Source: Candidatus Fraserbacteria bacterium (GTDB lineage: Bacteria > Bipolaricaulota > Bipolaricaulia > RBG-16-55-9 > JANLFV01). Taken from it: a stretch of 48,525 nucleotides of DNA. Both the position numbers and the translations under genes were made by a program. Of the stretch, positions 33,055 through 39,805 are shown piece after piece (position 1 is the stretch's first letter; every line of letters begins with the position of its first letter). Under the pieces are notes generated by a model. That model saw only the letters and a list, made by a program, of their open reading frames with translations. It made no database searches and had not been told where the DNA came from. Location of the stretch: the NCBI GenBank assembly GCA_037446135.1, contig JBBIJD010000003.1, forward strand, positions 4,790 through 53,314, read 5' to 3'.

Positions 33055-34077
33055 TTAGGCCAACTCCAGCATCCGTTCGATCGCCAGTCGGGCCTTCTTG
33101 GCTATCCTTTGTGGGACCTTCACCTCATAGATCTCCTCTTGGAGGGATCTTAGGACCTTCTCTAAGGTGATCATCTTCATATATCTGCAGATCGCTCCTT
33201 CATCGACCGGATAGAATACTTTGCCGGGCGCTTCCTTCTTCATCCGATGGAGTATGCCCACTTCCGTAGCGATAATAAACTCCTTGGCCGGCGATCGGCA
33301 GACATGCCTGATCATCCCCTCGGTCGAGTAGATATAGGTTCTTCCGCCTATAGCCCCTGAAGCCAGATAATACATGCATGTCGAGACACAGCCACACTCG
33401 GGATGGACCATCATCTCGGCTTCAGGATGGATCTGACGGATATTAGTGATGTGCTCAGGGCGGATCCCGGCATGCACATGGCACTCTCCCGGCCAGAGGT
33501 GCATCTTCCGGCCCGTAACCGCTTCCAGATAAGCCCCGAGGAACATATCCGGCAGGAATAAGATCTCCTTATCCGGCGGGATCGAGTTGATCACCTTCAC
33601 CGCGTTTGAGGAAGTGCAGCAGTAATCACTTTCGGCCTTGACCTCGGCCGTCGTGTTCACATAGGAGACAACGACCGCGTTCGGGTATTGAGCCTTCCAT
33701 TCCCTGAGTTGGTTGGCATCAATGGTAGAGGCCAATGAACAACCGGCCTCTAAATCGGGGAGCAAGACCCTCTTATCCGGGCAGATGATCGAGGCCGTCT
33801 CGGCCATAAAATGCACTCCGCAGAAGATGATCATCCTTGCGTCCGTCCTTGCTGCCGCTTGTGAGAGCCCTAAAGAGTCACCCACAAAGTCTGCGATATC
33901 CTGCACCTCCGGCATCTGATAGTTATGAGCGAGGATGATGGCGTTCTTCTCCTGTTTCAGCCTTTGGATCTCTTCGAGGATCTCAGCGCGGCCCTCAATA
34001 GCGGCCGCCTTGGAGGATTGTATAGGCGCCCCTGTGGAGGGGTTAATATCGGCATCGATCACTTCTTGCAAGAGCAT
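33055..34077 (-). CDS. nadA: Quinolinate synthase
   Basis: ILAHNYQ, GDSLGLS, FCGVHFMAE, AGCSLA, YVNTTA, CTSSNA, CHVH, HPEC, CRYMK. Confidence 0.97.
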   Translation of the reverse strand: MLLQEVIDADINPSTGAPIQSSKAAAIEGRAEILEEIQRLKQEKNAIILAHNYQMPEVQDIADFVGDSLGLSQAAARTDARMIIFCGVHFMAETASIICPDKRVLLPDLEAGCSLASTIDANQLREWKAQYPNAVVVSYVNTTAEVKAESDYCCTSSNAVKVINSIPPDKEILFLPDMFLGAYLEAVTGRKMHLWPGECHVHAGIRPEHITNIRQIHPEAEMMVHPECGCVSTCMYYLASGAIGGRTYIYSTEGMIRHVCRSPAKEFIIATEVGILHRMKKEAPGKVFYPVDEGAICRYMKMITLEKVLRSLQEEIYEVKVPQRIAKKARLAIERMLELA

Positions 34078-34345
34078 ACACCTCCAAAACCCTTCCTAGC
34101 TCGGGATCGAGCGGCTAAGTTCATTATAACAAACCCCCTCTGCCCGATCGAGCCGCTTGCTATAAGCTTATGGCCGTCGCCTCGAAGGGGAGGTCTAGCG
34201 CCTGCTCTAGCCCAGCCAGCCCCGGGAGCTTAGCTTGCCCAGCATTCGTCCCGCTATTAACTTCCCATTCATCTTCATCCCGCAGAACTCACTGCCCGCT
34301 GACCTCGGTCCGAATTCGTTGGCCCCGGCCTTTGAAGCCCCGCCC

Positions 34346-34385
34346 TTGACGGCCGGTAATTTTCCGTTATAATATTACAAGTAAC
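34346..34385 (+). promoter_or_regulatory. Promoter with candidate operator repeats for the RHH-peptide operon
   Basis: TTGACG-16 nt-TATAAT, with GTAAT, GTTAT, ATTAC and GTAAC pentamers around the -10. Confidence 0.7.
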
Positions 34386-34396
34386 AAAGGAGGCGT

Positions 34397-34753
34397 ATGG
34401 CTGGGGAGCGGAAGAGGCCCAGGATAAGAGGAGAAGAGGGGGAGAGATCTGCCCCTGAGGCCTATTTCTGCTGCGCCTCCGGGGATGACCTTGCTGAAGC
34501 TATCAAGCAGGCGCTCTCCAATCGCGAGCAGGTGGTCATGGTCAGAGTGAGTAATGAGATCTTAAACCATCTGGACATGCTGGTGGACTCCGGGATCTGC
34601 CGGAGCCGCTCCAGCGCGGCCACCTTCATGATTCGCGAGGGGATCAAGGCCAACCAACCACTCTTTGCGCGCATCTCTGAGGCAGCGGAGCAGATCGCGG
34701 CCTTGAGAGCAAAGCTTAAGAGCCTGATAGGGGTCCCTGAGCAAGAGGAGTGA
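34397..34753 (+). CDS. Ribbon-helix-helix (CopG-like) regulator with CC motif and C-terminal coiled coil
   Basis: VVMVRVSNEILNHLDMLVDSGICRSRSSAATFMIREGI fits the RHH pattern; AAGGAGG RBS. Confidence 0.75.
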   Translation: MAGERKRPRIRGEEGERSAPEAYFCCASGDDLAEAIKQALSNREQVVMVRVSNEILNHLDMLVDSGICRSRSSAATFMIREGIKANQPLFARISEAAEQIAALRAKLKSLIGVPEQEE

Positions 34754-34770
34754 GGTGAGGAAGGAGGTGA

Positions 34771-35013
34771 ATGCCAATGGCAGCCGAGGCTTCTTGTGAG
34801 GCCTATGATCGCCGCGCCTTCCTGCGCCGACTGGGGCAGGGCGTGACGGTTATGCTGCTGGGCCTAGCAGGGATGGCCGGGGTAGCGCGCTCTCGCTCTG
34901 CCCAAGAGCCCGAAGTGCTCTGCATGAGCCGAGCAGAGTATGAGCGGCTCGTGGCTGAGGGCAGACTGCCCCAAGCCGGATGCAAGTGCTGCTGCCCCGA
35001 TGGTTGTTGTTAG
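34771..35013 (+). CDS. Small Tat-signal, Cys-rich peptide (80 aa)
   Basis: AGGAGGTG RBS; DRRAFL twin-arginine motif, hydrophobic region, C-terminal CKCCCPDGCC; followed by a hairpin. Confidence 0.75.
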   Translation: MPMAAEASCEAYDRRAFLRRLGQGVTVMLLGLAGMAGVARSRSAQEPEVLCMSRAEYERLVAEGRLPQAGCKCCCPDGCC

Positions 35014-35033
35014 GTTCCAGTAGTCTCCGCTAG

Positions 35034-35075
35034 GGAGGCCCCGTGCCCAGCTCAGGCACGGGGCCTCCTCAGTTT
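35034..35075 (+). terminator. Hairpin/terminator after the peptide gene
   Basis: 14-bp stem GGAGGCCCCGTGCC/GGCACGGGGCCTCC, followed by TCAGTTT. Confidence 0.65.
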
Positions 35076-35112
35076 GAGGGCTAAATTCCAAGGAGGCTCA
35101 GGCTCTAGTAGG

Positions 35113-35143
35113 CCGGGCGGGGCCGCCCCGCCCGGGCTTCTTT
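35113..35143. terminator. Second GC hairpin between convergent genes
   Basis: CCGGGCGGGG-CCG-CCCCGCCCGG then GCTTCTTT. Confidence 0.5.
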
Positions 35144-35173
35144 GAGGAAGCATTCGCTTCGATGAGCTTGCTC

Positions 35174-36616
35174 CTACTGCAGCGGTGACCGGCTCTCAGC
35201 CGCTACCTCCCATCCCTGCCCCTGGAGCCATCTTAAGAAGTCGATATTGAGGGCCTTCCATCTCTTCAGTAGCCGATGGCCGTAGAAGACGAAGAAGGAG
35301 TTGCGGAACTCCCCTTTGAGGGCCGCACCGATCCCCCGCCAGAAGGAGTAGAACCGGGGCATCGCCTCTAGAGTGACCGCCGCTTGGAGCTGCCAAGGGC
35401 TCAGTAATTTCGGGCGGAAGACTACATGGTGGCCGTCGAATAACTCCCATCTGTGGGTGAAGATCCTCCCCTCAGCCTCCAACTCTTGGTAGGTCTCCGT
35501 CCCCGGCACTGGAGTGAGGATCAAGAACTGAACGGTATCGATCTGCATCGCGAGGGAGTAGCGGAGCGTCTCCCTGATCGTGGCCAGGGTATCGGTGTCG
35601 GCCCCTAGGACGAACATCCCGTGGACCTTGATCCCATAGCGATGGAGGACCTTGATCGCGCGGTCGATCTCCTCGACCGTCTGGGCCTTACGATAGCTCT
35701 TGAGCGTCTCAGGGTTGATCGACTCCAGCCCCAAGCAGAGGCGCACGCAGCCGCTCCGCTTCATCAGCTCCAACAGCTCAGTGTCCCGGACGACCTTCAC
35801 CCGCTCCTGGGCCGACCAGGGAGGAGTCAGCCCCTCCCGGAGCATCGCTTCCAGCAGTCTCTTCGTCCTCGCGGTATCTTCGGAGAAGTTGTCGTCGTAG
35901 AAGAACACATGGGCCCGGGGAGAACGGCGGTGGAGGAGGCGGAGCTCCTCCAGCACGCCCTCCACGCTGCGGGCCCGATACTTGCGGCCGAACATCTTCA
36001 CCACCGAGCAGAACTTGCAATTGTAAGGGCAGCCGCGCGAGGTCTGGATCGGGAGGACATTGATCCTTTCAGCCCCGGCGATCAGGGAGAGATCGGGGAA
36101 GGGGAGGCGGTCGAGGTCCTCGATGAGGGGCCGCCCTTGGTTGTGCTTGATCTCATCACCACTGCGGTAAGAGAGGCCTAGGATAGCAGAAGGCTCCCGC
36201 TCGCCCTCCTTGAGGGCCTCGGCTAACTCCACGAGCGTCTCCTCCCCCTCTCTGCGCACGACATAATCCGCGCCCGCCTCCAGGGCCTCCTCAGGGAGGA
36301 AGGTCACCTGCGGGCCGCCGAGGACGATGGGGATGCCGGGGGCTCGAGCCTTGATCTGTCGGATGAGCTCATAAGCTCGGGGCGCGGTGGGGGTGATGAC
36401 GGAGATCCCGACGAGATCCGCGCTCAAGACCCAAGACCAATCGAGCGGCGCGAGTTCCTCGCAGAAGATCCGCACGCTGTAACCCCGCCCCTTAAGGAGT
36501 GCCCCGAGCAGCGGGAGCCCCAGCCGGGGGAGCTTGTTGAGGCTGAAGATATGAAACCCCGGCGAGCGAGGTTCGATCAGAGCTACCTTCCCCTTAACTT
36601 GCCTTCTAGCCCTCAT
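35174..36616 (-). CDS. B12-binding domain radical SAM enzyme (class B methylase-like)
   Basis: LVGIS and LGGPQVT B12 domain, REGEET, TSRGCPYNCKFC, FYDDNF, GLES, LTPVPGT. Start uncertain. Confidence 0.92.
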   Translation of the reverse strand: MRARRQVKGKVALIEPRSPGFHIFSLNKLPRLGLPLLGALLKGRGYSVRIFCEELAPLDWSWVLSADLVGISVITPTAPRAYELIRQIKARAPGIPIVLGGPQVTFLPEEALEAGADYVVRREGEETLVELAEALKEGEREPSAILGLSYRSGDEIKHNQGRPLIEDLDRLPFPDLSLIAGAERINVLPIQTSRGCPYNCKFCSVVKMFGRKYRARSVEGVLEELRLLHRRSPRAHVFFYDDNFSEDTARTKRLLEAMLREGLTPPWSAQERVKVVRDTELLELMKRSGCVRLCLGLESINPETLKSYRKAQTVEEIDRAIKVLHRYGIKVHGMFVLGADTDTLATIRETLRYSLAMQIDTVQFLILTPVPGTETYQELEAEGRIFTHRWELFDGHHVVFRPKLLSPWQLQAAVTLEAMPRFYSFWRGIGAALKGEFRNSFFVFYGHRLLKRWKALNIDFLRWLQGQGWEVAAESRSPLQ

Positions 36617-36706
36617 TGTTTGGTCCAAGGGCGCGATCTATCTGAACAGGTCCTTCTCTCTCCCGCGAGATCTCCTGAGCAGAGTCCTCGGCAGGGGCGA
36701 ATTAAC

Positions 36707-37219
36707 TCACTGACTGACCGGGAGCCCCATGCGCAGGAGCCTCACAATCTCCAAAGGGAGCCGGTCGCGGTTCTCCTCCTGGAGCTCGAGCAATTTGATC
36801 CCGGCAAGCGCCCGGATCGCGTCTAAGAAGCTATTCCGCTCCTGCTTGAGGACCCCCAGAACCGGCTTGGAGCTTCGCAAGGCCGCAAAGACCTCTTCCT
36901 GGAATCGAGGAGCACCGAGCTCTAAAAAGCCCAGCTCGTCCATGACGATCAGCTCCCGCTCCATGGCCCGCTGGAGGGCCTCGACTCCGACCTCTTCGAA
37001 GCCTTGAGGGCAAGGGATCACCCGCCCGCTGGCGAGGACCTTCCCGATCAGGGCCGCCCGGCCGCTCACGAGGTCAACGATTCGGTAGCCCTGCAGGCCC
37101 TCGCTGAGCCAGCAGCGCTCAGTCCGGAAGCCGCCCGGTGCGGTCCCGAGGAGCGCTAAGGTCCTGTTCAGGGCCGTGGTCTTCCCCACCCCGACCCGGC
37201 CGGTGAGAAGGATCTTCAC
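36707..37219 (-). CDS. THEP1/NTPase_1 family nucleoside triphosphatase
   Basis: ILLTGRVGVGKTT, GGFRTE, IVMDELGFLE, ENRDRL. Confidence 0.9.
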   Translation of the reverse strand: MKILLTGRVGVGKTTALNRTLALLGTAPGGFRTERCWLSEGLQGYRIVDLVSGRAALIGKVLASGRVIPCPQGFEEVGVEALQRAMERELIVMDELGFLELGAPRFQEEVFAALRSSKPVLGVLKQERNSFLDAIRALAGIKLLELQEENRDRLPLEIVRLLRMGLPVSQ

Positions 37220-37896
37220 ATTAGGAGCAGGCTCAGGGCCGCAGCGAGCCAGCAGGCCGCGGTGAGAACGAGCGCACCGCGATAGAGGAGCCGCGGGTTG
37301 AGTGCAGCGAGCCGCTCCTTCCCCGCCCGGAGAAGCTCGCCGAAGCGGTGCCCGAGCGGGGCCGCGATGAGCGCGGCCAGCGCGGCGATCGTCCCGTCCT
37401 GGAGGGCGAATCCCACTAGTCCCAGCGGGTCAGTCACATCCTTCGGCCCCCGCCTGAGGATGTAGAAGAAGACGAGCGCGATCCCGACATAGGAGAGATA
37501 CATCCCCGATAGGCCCGTGCCCGCTCGGGCCAGCTCGCTCCGCTGATAGGATCTCCAAAGCAAGCTCACCACTCCCTGGAAGGCCAGGGCCTCGAGGATG
37601 ATTGCCATCGCCGGATTCACGACCGCCCGGGCGAGCGGCGAGAGAGAGAAGATCAGGACATCCAAGAGCTTGAAGGAGGCGGCGACGAGCCCGATCCCCG
37701 CTGGCAGGGTCGGTCTCTTGTAGACCGCCACGGCGGCGGCCATGATCGTGAACCCGAGGTTGGCCATGATCGCGCCTGTATAGGGCAGTTTGAGGGCATG
37801 GAGCAGCCCACCGAGCGTCGCCTCCAGCAGGCCCCAGAGCGAGCCGAAGAGGATAACCCCCACCGCGAGATCCAACAGATCCTTCCGCCTCTCCAT
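37216..37896 (-). CDS. Multi-pass membrane protein (possible ECF S-component-like)
   Basis: About 6-7 hydrophobic helices; GSLWGLLEATLG; 4-nt overlap with the NTPase gene. Confidence 0.7.
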   Translation of the reverse strand: MERRKDLLDLAVGVILFGSLWGLLEATLGGLLHALKLPYTGAIMANLGFTIMAAAVAVYKRPTLPAGIGLVAASFKLLDVLIFSLSPLARAVVNPAMAIILEALAFQGVVSLLWRSYQRSELARAGTGLSGMYLSYVGIALVFFYILRRGPKDVTDPLGLVGFALQDGTIAALAALIAAPLGHRFGELLRAGKERLAALNPRLLYRGALVLTAACWLAAALSLLLM

Positions 37897-37933
37897 CCTT
37901 CCTTACCTCCTTAGCAGTCGCTTAATTACGAGA

Positions 37934-37963
37934 AGTATAGATGATCATGAGGAGCGAATTCAA
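37934..37963 (-). promoter_or_regulatory. Promoter for membrane protein-NTPase(-radical SAM)
   Basis: Minus strand TTGAAT-18 nt-TATACT. Confidence 0.55.
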
Positions 37964-37981
37964 CCGCGCCGAGACCGGCGG

Positions 37982-39805
37982 TCACTCCAAGGGCCAGAAG
38001 AGCGGGAGGAAGAGGAGCATCACCCCCAAGAGGAGGAGGGCGAGCGGGAGCCCGACCTTCACGTAATCACGGACCCGATAGCCCCCTAAGCCCATGACGA
38101 GCATGTTCACCGGGTGGCCGAGGGGGGTCAGGAAGGCCATCGAGGTGGCCAGTGCCACCCCCATGGCGAGCGCCCGGGGGTTGGCCCCGCTCTGCTGGGC
38201 TGCCTGGATCGCGACCGGCGCGACGATAGCCGCCACGGCCGCGCCGTTGATCGCTTGGCTGAGCAGGAATGTCAAGATCGCCAGACCGGCGAGGAGCGCG
38301 AGCGGCCCGGCCGGGCCCAAGAAGGAGGTGAGCCCGCTCGCCAGCTCGGTGGCCGCCCCGGTCTTGACTATCGCGAGCCCGAGTGGGAGGACCCCAGCGA
38401 CGAGGAAGACTATCTTCCAGTCGATCGCACGATAGGCCTGATCCATTGTGAGGACCCCGGCCAGGATCATCGCCAGGGCCCCACCGAGCATGATCTCCCC
38501 CACCGCTGGGCGGCTGAGGGCCGCGCCGAGCAGGGTCAGGGCCAGGATCGCTAGGGCCAGCCAGCCCTTGCCGGGGACAGGGAGAGGGGCCGCCTCTTCC
38601 AGCCCATTCCCTGAAATGATGAGGTCCGGCTCGCCCCGGAGGATCGCCAGCCGATCTCGCGGCCCCTGGAGGAGGAGGGCATCCCCGAACTGGAGCGGGA
38701 GGTCGCTCAGGCCGGTCCGGATCGGCCGATCCCCCCGCCAGATCCCAAGGACACTCATCCCATACTTCTCGCGGAAGTGGGTCTGCCGGAGGGATTGGCC
38801 GATCAGCCTCGAGCGAGGGGCTAGGACGGCCTCGACCATGACCACGGCGGGGGCCTCGAGGTCCCGCTCATGCCATTCTCGGGGGGGAAGGATCTCGAGG
38901 TAGGGCTCGACATCCCGGCGCTTGAACTCCTCGAGCCTCCCCTCGAGGAGGACGATGTCCCCCTCCTGGAGGACGGCCTCAGGGGTGGGACAGAGCATCG
39001 TCCGCCCCTCTCGCTCGATCGCCACAACATTCAAGTTGTAGATCTCCCGGAAGGTGCTCCGGGCCAGGGGCTTCCCGATCAGATACGAGCCGGCCGGGAT
39101 CCGGGCGCGGAAGAGCCGCTCCCCCAAGCGATAGGTCTCGACCAGGTCCCCGTCTCCCTCAGCCTCACGGATGGCCTGGAGTCGCTCCGCGGGCGACCGT
39201 GCGGGCAGGAGCTGGTGCCCCCAAAGGGCCACGAAGGCGATCCCGACGGCGACGAGTGGTAGGCCGACTGGGGCGAAGTCGAGCAGGCCGAAGCCGGCTA
39301 GACCCTGATCTTTTAGGAGGCTGCTCACGACGATATTGGTTGTGGTCAGGAGAGTCGCCATCCCGCCGAGCAGGGTCGAGAAGGCCAATGGGATCAAGAG
39401 GCGGGAGGGATTGACCCCTCCCTTCCGCGCCGCCCCCGAGACCACGGGCAAGAGGACCGCCATGGCAGCGATGTTATTCATGAAGAGCGAGAGGAAGGCC
39501 CCGGCTAGCATCACGACCACCACAAGCCGCCGCTCCGCCGCACCGGCGAGCTGCAAGAGCAGGTTCCCCGCCCGCTCGGTCAGACCGGTCCGCCGCAACC
39601 CTTCGGCTAGGACGAAGATGGCCATGATGGTGATAACCGCCGACCGGCTGAATCCGGAGAGGGCCTCCTGAGGGGTCAAGATCCCGCTGACTCCGAGCGC
39701 GACGGCGATGAGGAGCGCCACAAGGTCGGCGCGGAGCCGGCCACTCAAGAGGAGACCGATTCCCCCGCCAAGAATGGCGAGAGTGAGGGCCATTCGGTTA
39801 TCCAT
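37982..39805 (-). CDS. SLC13/CitMHS permease with two TrkA-C (RCK_C) domains
   Basis: LRADLVA, SLFMNN, LGGMATL, two RCK_C repeats (LIGKPL..GD; LIGQSL..GDALL), FLTPLGHPVN. Confidence 0.9.
   Translation of the reverse strand: MDNRMALTLAILGGGIGLLLSGRLRADLVALLIAVALGVSGILTPQEALSGFSRSAVITIMAIFVLAEGLRRTGLTERAGNLLLQLAGAAERRLVVVVMLAGAFLSLFMNNIAAMAVLLPVVSGAARKGGVNPSRLLIPLAFSTLLGGMATLLTTTNIVVSSLLKDQGLAGFGLLDFAPVGLPLVAVGIAFVALWGHQLLPARSPAERLQAIREAEGDGDLVETYRLGERLFRARIPAGSYLIGKPLARSTFREIYNLNVVAIEREGRTMLCPTPEAVLQEGDIVLLEGRLEEFKRRDVEPYLEILPPREWHERDLEAPAVVMVEAVLAPRSRLIGQSLRQTHFREKYGMSVLGIWRGDRPIRTGLSDLPLQFGDALLLQGPRDRLAILRGEPDLIISGNGLEEAAPLPVPGKGWLALAILALTLLGAALSRPAVGEIMLGGALAMILAGVLTMDQAYRAIDWKIVFLVAGVLPLGLAIVKTGAATELASGLTSFLGPAGPLALLAGLAILTFLLSQAINGAAVAAIVAPVAIQAAQQSGANPRALAMGVALATSMAFLTPLGHPVNMLVMGLGGYRVRDYVKVGLPLALLLLGVMLLFLPLFWPLE

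What the first reader, a model, noticed from the sequence alone, without database searches (positions are those of the whole stretch)
34346..35075. RHH regulator + Tat-exported Cys-rich micro-protein: candidate undescribed metal-binding or RiPP system
Seen: a self-contained unit with promoter, strong RBSs and a terminal hairpin. Gene 2 has DRRAFL, a hydrophobic region and a likely cleavage at RSA/Q. That leaves QEPEVLCMSRAEYERLVAEGRLPQAGCKCCCPDGCC: 36 aa, 7 Cys, 6 of them in the last 10 residues. Gene 1 is an RHH protein with a YFCC motif. Known: Tat exports folded or cofactor-loaded cargo, and vicinal CC clusters bind soft metals and metalloids. Inference: a metallothionein-like peptide loaded in the cytoplasm and exported (detoxification or metal delivery), or a RiPP-like precursor. 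I recognise no family for it.
Basis: partly seen in the sequence, partly recalled or inferred. Interest (0 to 1): 0.8.

Follow-up and report, generated by a model that had tools for sequence, protein, structure and literature searches.

The report
Self-regulated repressor plus exported cysteine-rich peptide
A tiny self-regulated two-gene cassette in an uncultured subsurface bacterium encodes a DNA-binding repressor and a probably exported, cysteine-packed mini-protein of a family seen only seven times; metal binding is a reasonable guess but nothing yet tests it.

Summary
Window 34346-35069 is one compact operon. It has a near-consensus promoter and a 10-bp palindrome (TTACAAGTAA) that occurs once in the 1.70-Mb genome. 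It encodes a 118-aa ribbon-helix-helix (RHH) protein and a 78-aa protein; the true start is probably ATG 34777, not 34771. A 15-bp hairpin closes the unit.

Gene 2 is real. Six relatives exist, all metagenomic, in no Pfam or NCBIfam family. All seven keep RRxFL, a basic c-region and four Cys (C51, C71-x-C73-C74). The final PDGCC is not conserved.

Gene 1 belongs to PF27540 (AbmR C-terminal-like RHH), a large family with a conserved TTACNNGTAA operator at its own promoter. Only a Bipolaricaulota subgroup carries three Cys (C25, C26, C68). In relatives the same Cys-type RHH is followed by an unrelated 31-aa micro-ORF with vicinal Cys, not by the Tat peptide.

The adjacent B12-radical SAM gene is not linked to the cassette, so the RiPP reading is unsupported. 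Metal binding rests on composition only; no neighbour is a metal gene.

Best reading (0.35): an autorepressed thiol-switch RHH controlling an exported thiophilic-ligand-binding peptide. Interest is moderate.

The parts
34346..34373 (+). sigma-70-type promoter, TTGACG (34346-34351), 16-nt spacer, TATAAT (34368-34373)
   Evidence: 11 of 12 matches; 3 promoter-like sites in the region against 0.3 expected
34375..34384 (.). near-palindromic operator candidate TTACAAGTAA, directly after the -10 box
   Evidence: One match in the window against 0.02 expected. One match in the whole 1.70-Mb genome. The same TTACNNGTAA lies upstream of the RHH gene in 61 of 97 recognised RHH loci.
34389..34393 (+). GGAGG ribosome-binding site of gene 1
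   Evidence: read
34397..34753 (+). gene 1: 118-aa RHH protein of family PF27540 (AbmR C-terminal-like), with Cys25, Cys26 (YFCC) and Cys68 (GIC in the loop between helix A and helix B)
34763..34767 (+). GGAGG ribosome-binding site of gene 2
   Evidence: read; 9 nt before ATG 34777
34777..35013 (+). gene 2: 78-aa precursor (80 aa if read from ATG 34771)
34777..34902 (+). Tat-type signal: D-RR-AFLR at 34807-34827, hydrophobic stretch, basic c-region RSRSA; the cleavage after Ala44 (80-aa numbering) is inferred
   Evidence: RR, F and L are invariant in 7 of 7. TIGR01409 gives 10.9 bits for the window (below the 16.7 cut-off) and 17.6 for relative P0118. The cleavage site is inferred from A-x-A before QEP in relatives.
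34903..35010 (+). predicted mature 36-aa peptide: Cys51, a short helix (residues 54-62 in the model), then the Cys cluster 34981-35010 (CKCCCPDGCC)
35033..35069 (+). 15-bp GC-rich hairpin closing the operon; the U tract after it is weak
35113..35135 (.). second GC hairpin between the cassette and the convergent radical SAM gene; terminator-like on the + strand

Best explanation
The two genes form one autorepressed operon.

Gene 1 is a dimeric ribbon-helix-helix repressor of the AbmR-C-terminal family. It binds the palindrome TTACAAGTAA between the -10 box and the ribosome-binding site, and so shuts off its own promoter. In this Bipolaricaulota subgroup it has gained three cysteines: a vicinal pair just before the helix that precedes the RHH, and one in the helix A-helix B loop. 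I infer that these form a thiol-based sensory site for a thiophilic ligand, which could be a soft metal or metalloid or a thiol-reactive sulfur or oxidant species. Occupation of the site would lift repression.

Gene 2 is then made, exported by the Tat pathway and cut after Ala44. The product is a 36-aa peptide: a short amphipathic helix followed by a Cys cluster whose conserved core is C-x19-C-x-C-C. This peptide would bind or buffer the same kind of ligand outside the cytoplasm.

Shown here: the ORFs, their conservation, the Tat-type signal, the invariant Cys, conservation of the operator and its uniqueness in the genome, and TatC in the genome.

Inferred: DNA binding at that site, sensing through Cys, export, cleavage and ligand binding.
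For: Operon anatomy: promoter, operator, two ribosome-binding sites, a 23-nt gap between the genes and a closing hairpin.

Operator:
- TTACNNGTAA lies 60-330 nt upstream of the RHH beta-strand codons in 61 of 97 recognised RHH loci. Only 2 other copies occur in 307 kb of those loci.
- The 5 further motif-bearing loci are also RHH loci that my pattern had missed.
- The motif occurs once in the window against 0.02 expected and once in the whole genome. By the exact motif, the only target is this operon.

RHH fold: AlphaFold gives pLDDT above 90 for residues 50-110. The best structural matches are RHH proteins. NikR aligns at rmsd 1.7 A over 40 residues at a weak E-value. ParD/PrpA-type RHH proteins give Z 5.5.

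Cys triad: the CCASG and GIC motifs go together in the Bipolaricaulota subgroup and are absent from most of the family. In the genome contigs sample, 6 of 77 recognised RHH proteins have the CC pair.

Tat signal and Cys core are conserved in 7 of 7. TatC is present.

Thiol chemistry rather than a specific fold: in relatives the same Cys-type RHH is followed by a 31-aa micro-ORF that shares nothing with gene 2 except vicinal Cys (hhalign probability 0.8%). That micro-ORF was found in 4 of 6 CC-type loci and in 0 of the 74 other loci of the sample.
Against: - No metal, arsenic, mercury or sulfur gene lies beside any cassette examined. The neighbours are NadA, a B12-radical SAM protein, MBL-fold, DUF4389, M29 peptidase, GNAT, MFS, SRPBCC and HhH-GPD proteins.
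- Most of the RHH family has no Cys, so the family as such is not a thiol sensor.
- Of the 11 RHH-positive genomes in the phylum, 4 showed neither peptide.
- Tat-like signals in this phylum also head Peripla_BP_6 solute-binding proteins, so export through Tat does not argue for a bound cofactor.
- The window's own signal scores below the TIGR01409 cut-off.
- The tail beyond CxCC varies, and one member has CCxxCC instead.
- The peptide model has low confidence, pLDDT 57.
- There are no expression data.
Confidence: 0.35

Rival explanations
1. The exported peptide is an antimicrobial or signalling peptide. The Cys would form disulfides that stiffen a small secreted effector, as in bacteriocins or defensins, and the RHH would only set its level.
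For: The product is small, secreted and Cys-rich, under a dedicated regulator. Distribution is patchy: 2 of 184 phylum genomes have the peptide and 11 of 184 have the RHH. Genomic context varies. Tat-exported Cys-rich halocins are known (recalled, not checked here).
Against: No immunity, processing or transporter gene is linked. The runs that hold the DNA are labelled subsurface metagenome and relatives are described as acetogens (listing only). I infer anoxic surroundings from this, and those would disfavour disulfides. Runs of three adjacent Cys are awkward for defined disulfide knots. This reading does not explain the Cys triad in the regulator.
Confidence: 0.15
2. The peptide is a cofactor-bearing mini redox protein. 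The four invariant Cys would hold an Fe-S cluster or a rubredoxin-like iron that is inserted in the cytoplasm, which would explain the use of Tat.
For: Exactly four Cys are invariant. Tat is the route for cofactor-loaded proteins (established knowledge). The protein-atlas feature search placed Tat-signal iron-sulfur subunits among the nearest clusters, as leads only, at scores 0.89-0.90 with recognition below its mark.
Against: Adjacent Cys (C73-C74) rarely both ligate one cluster (recalled). There is no Pfam hit to HiPIP, rubredoxin or ferredoxin families at E up to 1. No redox partner gene lies nearby. Tat carries cofactor-less proteins in this phylum.
Confidence: 0.1
3. The cassette is a partner-binding module of the toxin-antitoxin type. 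The RHH would neutralise the small downstream protein by direct binding through its long C-terminal helix, and would autoregulate the pair.
For: The gene order is RHH first, small gene second, with a palindromic operator on the promoter. The best structural neighbours are ParD/PrpA, MazE and KacA antitoxins, which have an RHH plus a C-terminal helix (Z 4.6-5.5). The second gene is swapped between unrelated small proteins. Distribution in the phylum is patchy.
Against: The Z values lie in the range the tool calls common for helical models. A Tat-exported toxin does not fit the type II logic. The RHH family is very broad, with at least 394 tblastn-confirmed places in the genome collection, and there it mostly lacks these small partners. 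PADLOC gave no hit for either protein.
Confidence: 0.1
4. The peptide is a RiPP precursor whose Cys tail is modified by the neighbouring B12-binding radical SAM enzyme (35174-36628, minus strand).
For: The genes are adjacent, 160 nt apart and convergent. The enzyme has weak, far sub-threshold similarity to RiPP radical SAM families: ApyD at 159 bits against a 750 cut-off. Both genomes that have the peptide also have this enzyme.
Against: The genes converge and are separated by two hairpins. In G094 the enzyme lies on another contig. Of the 9 genomes with the enzyme, 7 lack both the RHH and the peptide. No Tat- or Cys-rich small ORF was found next to the 8 homologous loci scanned. RiPP precursors with a Tat signal are not a known pattern (recalled).
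Confidence: 0.05

Closest known systems
AbmR / Rv1265 C-terminal domain family (Pfam PF27540 Mb1296_C; NCBIfam NF058631)
   Same: Gene 1 carries PF27540 in the precomputed annotation (the family name comes). It aligns to positions 103-163 of the 167-position AbmR model. AbmR is described as an autoinhibitory transcription factor that controls an adjacent small gene, the sRNA Mcr11 (PMC6282994; search listing and start of the abstract only).
   Different: It scores 26.9 bits against a cut-off of 160, so it is not an AbmR equivalog. It lacks the N-terminal part of AbmR. It has a Cys triad, and its neighbour is a peptide gene, not an sRNA.
SmtB-SmtA type pairs: a metal-sensing repressor with a metallothionein gene
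   Same: The logic proposed here is the same: a small repressor that senses a thiophilic ligand controls one small Cys-rich binding protein. SmtA as a bacterial metallothionein appears in a passage of PMC7558416. SmtB is recalled.
   Different: The repressor fold differs (RHH, not ArsR/SmtB). Here the product appears to be exported. There is no sequence relation. Metal binding is untested here.
Csp1 copper storage proteins
   Same: They are Cys-rich proteins with a Tat signal, exported to bind Cu(I) (PMC7558416, passages).
   Different: Csp1 is a pre-folded four-helix bundle that forms tetramers and binds 13 Cu(I) per monomer (same passages). Gene 2 yields about 36 residues with one short helix and gave no family hit.
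CopG (periplasmic copper resistance protein with a CxCC motif)
   Same: The CxCC motif is the conserved core of the tail in 6 of 7 members. In CopG, CxCC binds a tetranuclear Cu cluster (PMC7558416, passage).
   Different: CopG has a thioredoxin-like domain and two Met ligands (same passage). Neither is present here.
NikR (RHH metal-sensing repressor)
   Same: Both are RHH DNA-binding domains. The model of gene 1 superposes on NikR at rmsd 1.7 A over 40 residues, at a weak E-value of 2.5.
   Different: NikR senses Ni through a separate C-terminal domain (recalled). Gene 1 has only a helix there, and its Cys lie before and within the RHH.

Membership tests
Tat (twin-arginine) signal peptides | S/T-R-R-x-F-L-K-like motif, a moderately hydrophobic h-region and a basic c-region; curated model TIGR01409 | tested here: inconclusive
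   RR, F and L are invariant in 7 of 7, and every member has a basic residue in the c-region. TIGR01409 gives 10.9 bits for the window, below the 16.7 cut-off, and 17.6 bits for relative P0118, above it. No SignalP or TatP was available.
Tat (twin-arginine) signal peptides | the organism has the translocase | tested here: met
   TatC (PF00902) scores 228.9 bits in the window's own genome.
PF27540 Mb1296_C (AbmR C-terminal-like RHH) | a match to the family model | tested here: met
   The precomputed Pfam annotation of P0005, which is 100% identical to gene 1, lists PF27540.1. The local Pfam copy gave no such hit. The partial NCBIfam AbmR match covers residues 46-106.
AbmR equivalog (NF058631) | a full-length score over the curated cut-off of 160 bits | tested here: not met
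   26.9 bits, covering only profile positions 103-163 of 167.
Ribbon-helix-helix fold | a beta strand, helix A, a G-x-S/T turn and helix B, similar to solved RHH proteins | tested here: inconclusive
   The model has helices at 53-64 and 71-85 at pLDDT above 90. The top matches are RHH proteins, but all are weak: best Foldseek E 0.95 and best VIA Z 5.5. A monomer model cannot form the intersubunit strand pair.
Bacterial metallothioneins, Csp and HiPIP | a match to a family model or to a solved structure sequence | tested here: not met
   There is no Pfam or NCBIfam family for gene 2 or its relatives at E up to 1 other than signal-type hits. The PDB profile search gave only signal-like matches with E at or above 0.0045.
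RiPP precursor with radical SAM maturase | precursor and maturase conserved as neighbours | tested here: not met
   In G094 the enzyme is on another contig. Of the 9 genomes with the enzyme, 7 lack the cassette. No such small ORF was found beside the 8 homologous loci scanned.
Type II toxin-antitoxin | the second gene belongs to a known toxin family, or binding is shown | tested here: not met
   Gene 2 matched no toxin family in Pfam, NCBIfam or PADLOC. Binding was not established by any test here.
CopG (DUF411) copper protein | a CxCC motif within a thioredoxin-like domain | tested here: not met
   CxCC is present in 6 of 7 members, but the mature part is about 36 aa, with one short helix in the model and no Pfam hit.

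The most novel reading that the evidence does not exclude
A new minimal sense-and-buffer module. An AbmR-C-type RHH repressor has acquired a three-Cys switch. It controls interchangeable vicinal-Cys micro-proteins of independent origin: a 31-aa cytoplasmic one in most carriers, and a Tat-exported 36-aa one in the window's lineage. Regulator and effector would use the same thiol chemistry on the same ligand, a soft metal or metalloid or a reactive sulfur species. The exported form would be the smallest known Tat cargo of this kind.
Probability: 0.2. Interest if true: 0.7.

Novelty: new variant of a known kind. Interest (0 to 1): 0.45.

Why it matters
If the reading is right, this is a very small, easily testable regulator-effector pair from a phylum with almost no experimental biology. 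It consists of a 10-bp operator, a 118-aa repressor with a candidate thiol switch, and a 36-aa exported Cys peptide.

It would add an RHH-based thiol sensor to the known sensor folds. It would also add a secreted metallothionein-like peptide to bacterial metal or sulfur handling, and show micro-proteins of different origin recruited to the same regulator.

Even without a function, three results can be used directly for annotating hundreds of genomes:
- the conserved TTACNNGTAA operator of the large PF27540 family;
- the unannotated 31-aa micro-ORF;
- the seven-member peptide family.

If the peptide proves inert, the finding reduces to an orphan lineage-specific gene behind a common autoregulator.

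Tried and rejected
- Complex prediction of two RHH copies with residues 41-80 of the peptide gave no answer: score 0.02 against a mark of 0.32, controls not run.
- Sequencing runs: no RNA holder is listed. Three runs of one study were listed, two of which hold the DNA, and one of those may be the source. Laying contigs gave only the start-codon variant and a second diverged RHH contig.
- Peptide relatives were sought in JGI metagenome contigs and in one genome per species. Pattern hits numbered 266 and 35, and none was confirmed. The first tries with the 7-row alignment failed for lack of a conserved stretch.
- Profile-profile comparison of the Tat peptide with the 31-aa micro-ORF aligned 3 columns, probability 0.8%. 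I treat them as unrelated.
- Rfam gave nothing near threshold, either on the window at 33900-35400 or on 7 related loci. I had suspected the micro-ORF region of being an RNA element because of its hairpin, but the synonymous third-position changes argue for coding.
- PDB sequence searches gave only coiled-coil noise for the RHH and signal-like hits for the peptide.
- The peptide model reached only pLDDT 57, so I ran no fold search on it.
- The protein atlas gave Tat-signal look-alikes only, with recognition below its mark.
- PADLOC gave no hit for either cassette protein.
- Earlier findings of this scan: two look-ups, nothing returned.
- Literature: the term sets returned no paper on a Tat-exported Cys-tail micro-protein or on a Cys-bearing RHH of this family. 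These were narrow word searches of the held library only. Supplementary files were not opened.
- GC content across 31-38 kb is unremarkable, 0.53-0.71, and the cassette does not stand out. There is no sign of a foreign island.
Full report
**What is there.** The window comes from a Bipolaricaulota metagenome-assembled genome. The phylum is given by the source names on RHH relatives. The genome is 1.70 Mb in 109 contigs and 91% complete. Between nadA (33055-34077, minus strand; PF02445, E 5.7e-121) and a convergent B12-binding radical SAM gene (35174-36628, minus strand) lies a compact plus-strand unit:
- a promoter, TTGACG-16 nt-TATAAT, at 34346-34373 (11 of 12 matches);
- the near-palindrome TTACAAGTAA at 34375-34384;
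- a GGAGG, then gene 1 (34397-34753, 118 aa);
- 23 nt with a second GGAGG, then gene 2, which ends at 35013;
- a 15-bp GC hairpin at 35033-35069 (z = -4.6; 0 of 200 shuffles fold as well).

One correction concerns the start of gene 2, which is more likely ATG 34777 than 34771. The spacing to the GGAGG is 9 nt rather than 3. The database gene call is 78 aa (P0001). A near-identical contig in a second run carries G>A at 34773, which removes the first ATG.

**Gene 2 is a real gene of a very small family.**
- The word-indexed search of 5.8 billion proteins returned 4 proteins from 4 candidates: the window's own and three at 75-77% identity.
- The exhaustive HMMER search of 1.84 billion cluster representatives, run with a profile, returned 4 hits at E up to 0.001. 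Two are true relatives: P0117 (2.6e-24) and P0118 (3.2e-20). The other two are long proteins at E around 1e-4, which I did not examine.
- A six-frame search of all 184 genomes of the phylum gave 72 genomes with some match at E up to 1. Only two matches cover the mature part: the window's own and G094 (E 3.2e-6, positions 7-74 of 78). The others cover the signal region inside longer ORFs. I looked at a handful of these, not all.
- All six database clusters are singletons from metagenomes.

The family therefore has seven members. In their alignment the invariant positions are R14, R15, F17, L18, R20, G24, G34, E46, V49, C51, E63, G64, C71, C73 and C74. The twin-arginine motif, a basic residue in the c-region and four Cys are kept. 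The rest of the tail varies: CKCCCPDGCC, CKCCPDDRCCC, CCSECCSR, KCKCCPPGCC and CRCCCH followed by 11 non-Cys residues. Mature Cys counts are 7, 7, 7, 7, 5, 6 and 6.

No Pfam or NCBIfam family matches beyond signal-type hits. The curated Tat-signal model is passed by P0118 (17.6 bits against 16.7) but not by the window's protein (10.9). TatC is present in the genome. AlphaFold gives a signal helix, a short helix at 54-62 and an unstructured tail at pLDDT 57. That is what an apo metal-dependent peptide would give, but so would any disordered peptide.

**Gene 1 has a family.** Its exact sequence carries PF27540 in the precomputed annotation. The atlas names this family Mb1296_C, the C-terminal domain of the mycobacterial regulator AbmR/Rv1265. 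NCBIfam's AbmR model matches residues 46-106 at 26.9 bits, far below its cut-off of 160.
- The model has a disordered N-terminus (1-26), a helix at 30-40, the two RHH helices at 53-64 and 71-85, and a long C-terminal helix at 87-111. pLDDT is above 90 from residue 50.
- Structural matches are weak but are RHH proteins: NikR at rmsd 1.7 A over 40 residues (E 2.5) and ParD/PrpA, MazE and KacA antitoxins at Z 4.6-5.5.
- The family is large. There were 112 proteins in the length-restricted search. In the one-genome-per-species collection, at least 394 places were confirmed by tblastn, mostly in Chloroflexota and Acidobacteriota.

**A conserved operator.** Aligning the upstream regions showed a palindrome right after the -10 box.
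- Counted over all loci held, TTACNNGTAA lies 60-330 nt upstream of the RHH strand codons in 61 of 97 loci that my pattern recognised as RHH loci. Only 2 further copies occur in 307 kb of these loci.
- Among the 46 other loci, 5 have the motif. All 5 are RHH loci that the pattern had missed.
- Some Acidobacteriota loci instead show GTAAT-N3-ATTAC.
- In the window the motif occurs once against 0.02 expected.
- In the whole genome TTACANGTAA occurs once, at this promoter.

The simplest reading is autorepression, with this operon as the only exact target.

**The Cys triad and a second kind of partner.** Within the family, CCASG just before the pre-RHH helix and GIC in the helix A-helix B loop go together in the Bipolaricaulota subgroup. 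They are missing in the distant members. In the 80-locus sample, 6 of 77 recognised proteins have the CC pair.

In the phylum the RHH is patchy, found in 11 of 184 genomes and not in the two other genomes of the window's genus. Downstream of the Cys-type RHH, most carriers have no Tat peptide. They have a 31-aa micro-ORF, M-x-G-S-F-W-T-S-x-R-Y-A-L-R-P-V-A-x-C-C-x-G-x-x-K-E-P-L-P-R-x, found in 15 loci.
- Its variation is concentrated at third codon positions and includes AGG/CGC for Arg and TTG/CTN for Leu. I therefore read it as coding, although its 3' end overlaps a conserved hairpin and two loci lack the ATG.
- It scores strongly in 5 of 184 genomes, each time beside the RHH.
- In the species-wide sample it is present in 4 of 6 CC-type loci and in 0 of the 74 others.
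- It is unrelated to gene 2 (hhalign probability 0.8%).

Of the 11 RHH-positive genomes, 2 have the Tat peptide, 5 have the micro-ORF and 4 have neither. Two unrelated small products behind the same Cys-bearing regulator share only vicinal Cys. This is my main argument that thiol chemistry, rather than a particular fold, is what matters here.

**The radical SAM neighbour.**
- It is convergent and is separated from the cassette by two hairpins.
- Homologues at E up to 1e-60 occur in 9 of 184 genomes.
- Only G000 and G094 also have the peptide. In G094 the enzyme lies on a different, short contig.
- The other 7 genomes lack the RHH.
- No Tat- or Cys-rich small ORF lies beside the 8 homologous loci scanned.

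The RiPP idea is therefore unsupported, though the co-occurrence in 2 of 2 peptide genomes keeps it from being excluded.

**Mechanism.** I commit to the following at 0.35. The RHH dimer sits on TTACAAGTAA and blocks its own promoter. A thiophilic ligand engages C25, C26 and C68 and releases it. The precursor is exported by Tat and cut before Q45. The 36-aa peptide then binds the ligand outside the cell through the C51 / C71-x-C73-C74 core and the extra Cys.

The anatomy and conservation are shown. Everything biochemical is inferred. Against this reading:
- There is no metal or sulfur gene in any neighbourhood.

The rivals are a secreted antimicrobial or signalling peptide (0.15), an Fe-S or iron mini-protein (0.10), a toxin-antitoxin-like binding pair (0.10) and a RiPP (0.05).

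**Comparison with known systems.** It works most like a metal-sensor-plus-metallothionein pair (SmtB-SmtA, recalled). There are echoes of two copper proteins described in passages of PMC7558416: Csp1, which is Tat-exported and Cys-rich, and CopG, which has a CxCC motif. It is a member of none of these families; see the membership rows. AbmR itself has been found close to metal-efflux platforms in M. tuberculosis by proximity labelling (PMC13043812, passages). I record that as a loose lead only.

**Verdict.** The feature is real, conserved and uncharacterised. The regulator belongs to a known, functionally obscure family. The peptide family is new to the curated libraries and seven members strong. 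The metal reading is plausible but rests on composition. I rate it a new variant of a known kind, with interest 0.45.

**Limits.**
- The five metagenome contigs that carry relatives could not be fetched.
- Adjacency of RHH and peptide is seen directly only in the window and in G094, where the RHH reading frame is broken. For P0002/P0008 and P0003/P0007 it is suggested by equal contig lengths.
- There are no RNA data.
- The tools gave no model coordinates, so Cys distances could not be measured.
- Supplementary files were not opened.

Noticed in passing
L035:1350-1442 (-), L037:1841-1933 (+), L057:4206-4298 (+) and 12 further loci: An unannotated, conserved 31-aa micro-ORF with vicinal Cys (M.GSFWTS.RYALRPVA.CC.G..KEPLPR.) lies directly downstream of the Cys-type RHH gene, after a strong GGAGG. 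Its last codons form the 5' arm of a conserved hairpin. It matches no Pfam or NCBIfam family.
   Followed up: partly
upstream of the RHH genes in L035-L150; window 34375-34384: The PF27540-type RHH family has a deeply conserved operator-like palindrome, TTACNNGTAA, at its own promoter across Bipolaricaulota and Chloroflexota. Some Acidobacteriota loci show GTAAT-N3-ATTAC instead.
   Followed up: partly
L089, L090, L094, L095, L103, L104, L117, L122 and others, directly after the RHH gene: In many Chloroflexota loci the RHH gene is followed by a gene of about 120-135 aa whose product repeats the same layout (helix, then ...LMVI[KR]VD...). It looks like a tandem paralogue. One tested member had no Pfam hit.
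   Followed up: no
L004:1088-1439 (G094): In the only other genome with the Tat peptide, the RHH reading frame is broken inside the beta-strand codons: two tblastn pieces lie in different frames with a stop between them. This is either a pseudogene or an assembly error.
   Followed up: no
window 35174-39805, minus strand: A run of four genes lies on the minus strand: a B12-binding radical SAM protein, an NTPase_1 (PF03266), a 226-aa protein with no family, and a CitMHS/TrkA_C transporter. The radical SAM protein is below every NCBIfam cut-off (best BchE, 189 bits against 481), so its substrate is unknown.
   Followed up: partly
L007:1507-2321 (G102): A 97-aa ORF with a Tat-like signal is followed by a 183-aa ORF whose C-terminal third is extremely Cys-rich, with many CC and CxxC runs. 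It is unrelated to the finding by sequence.
   Followed up: no
L036:1931-2128 (+): A 65-aa ORF with 9 Cys lies divergently upstream of an RHH plus micro-ORF cassette.
   Followed up: no
window 34518-34699, run X2: A second contig in run X2 covers the RHH gene with 25 differences and 2 gaps in 182 nt. A diverged second RHH copy or strain therefore lives in the same community.
   Followed up: no
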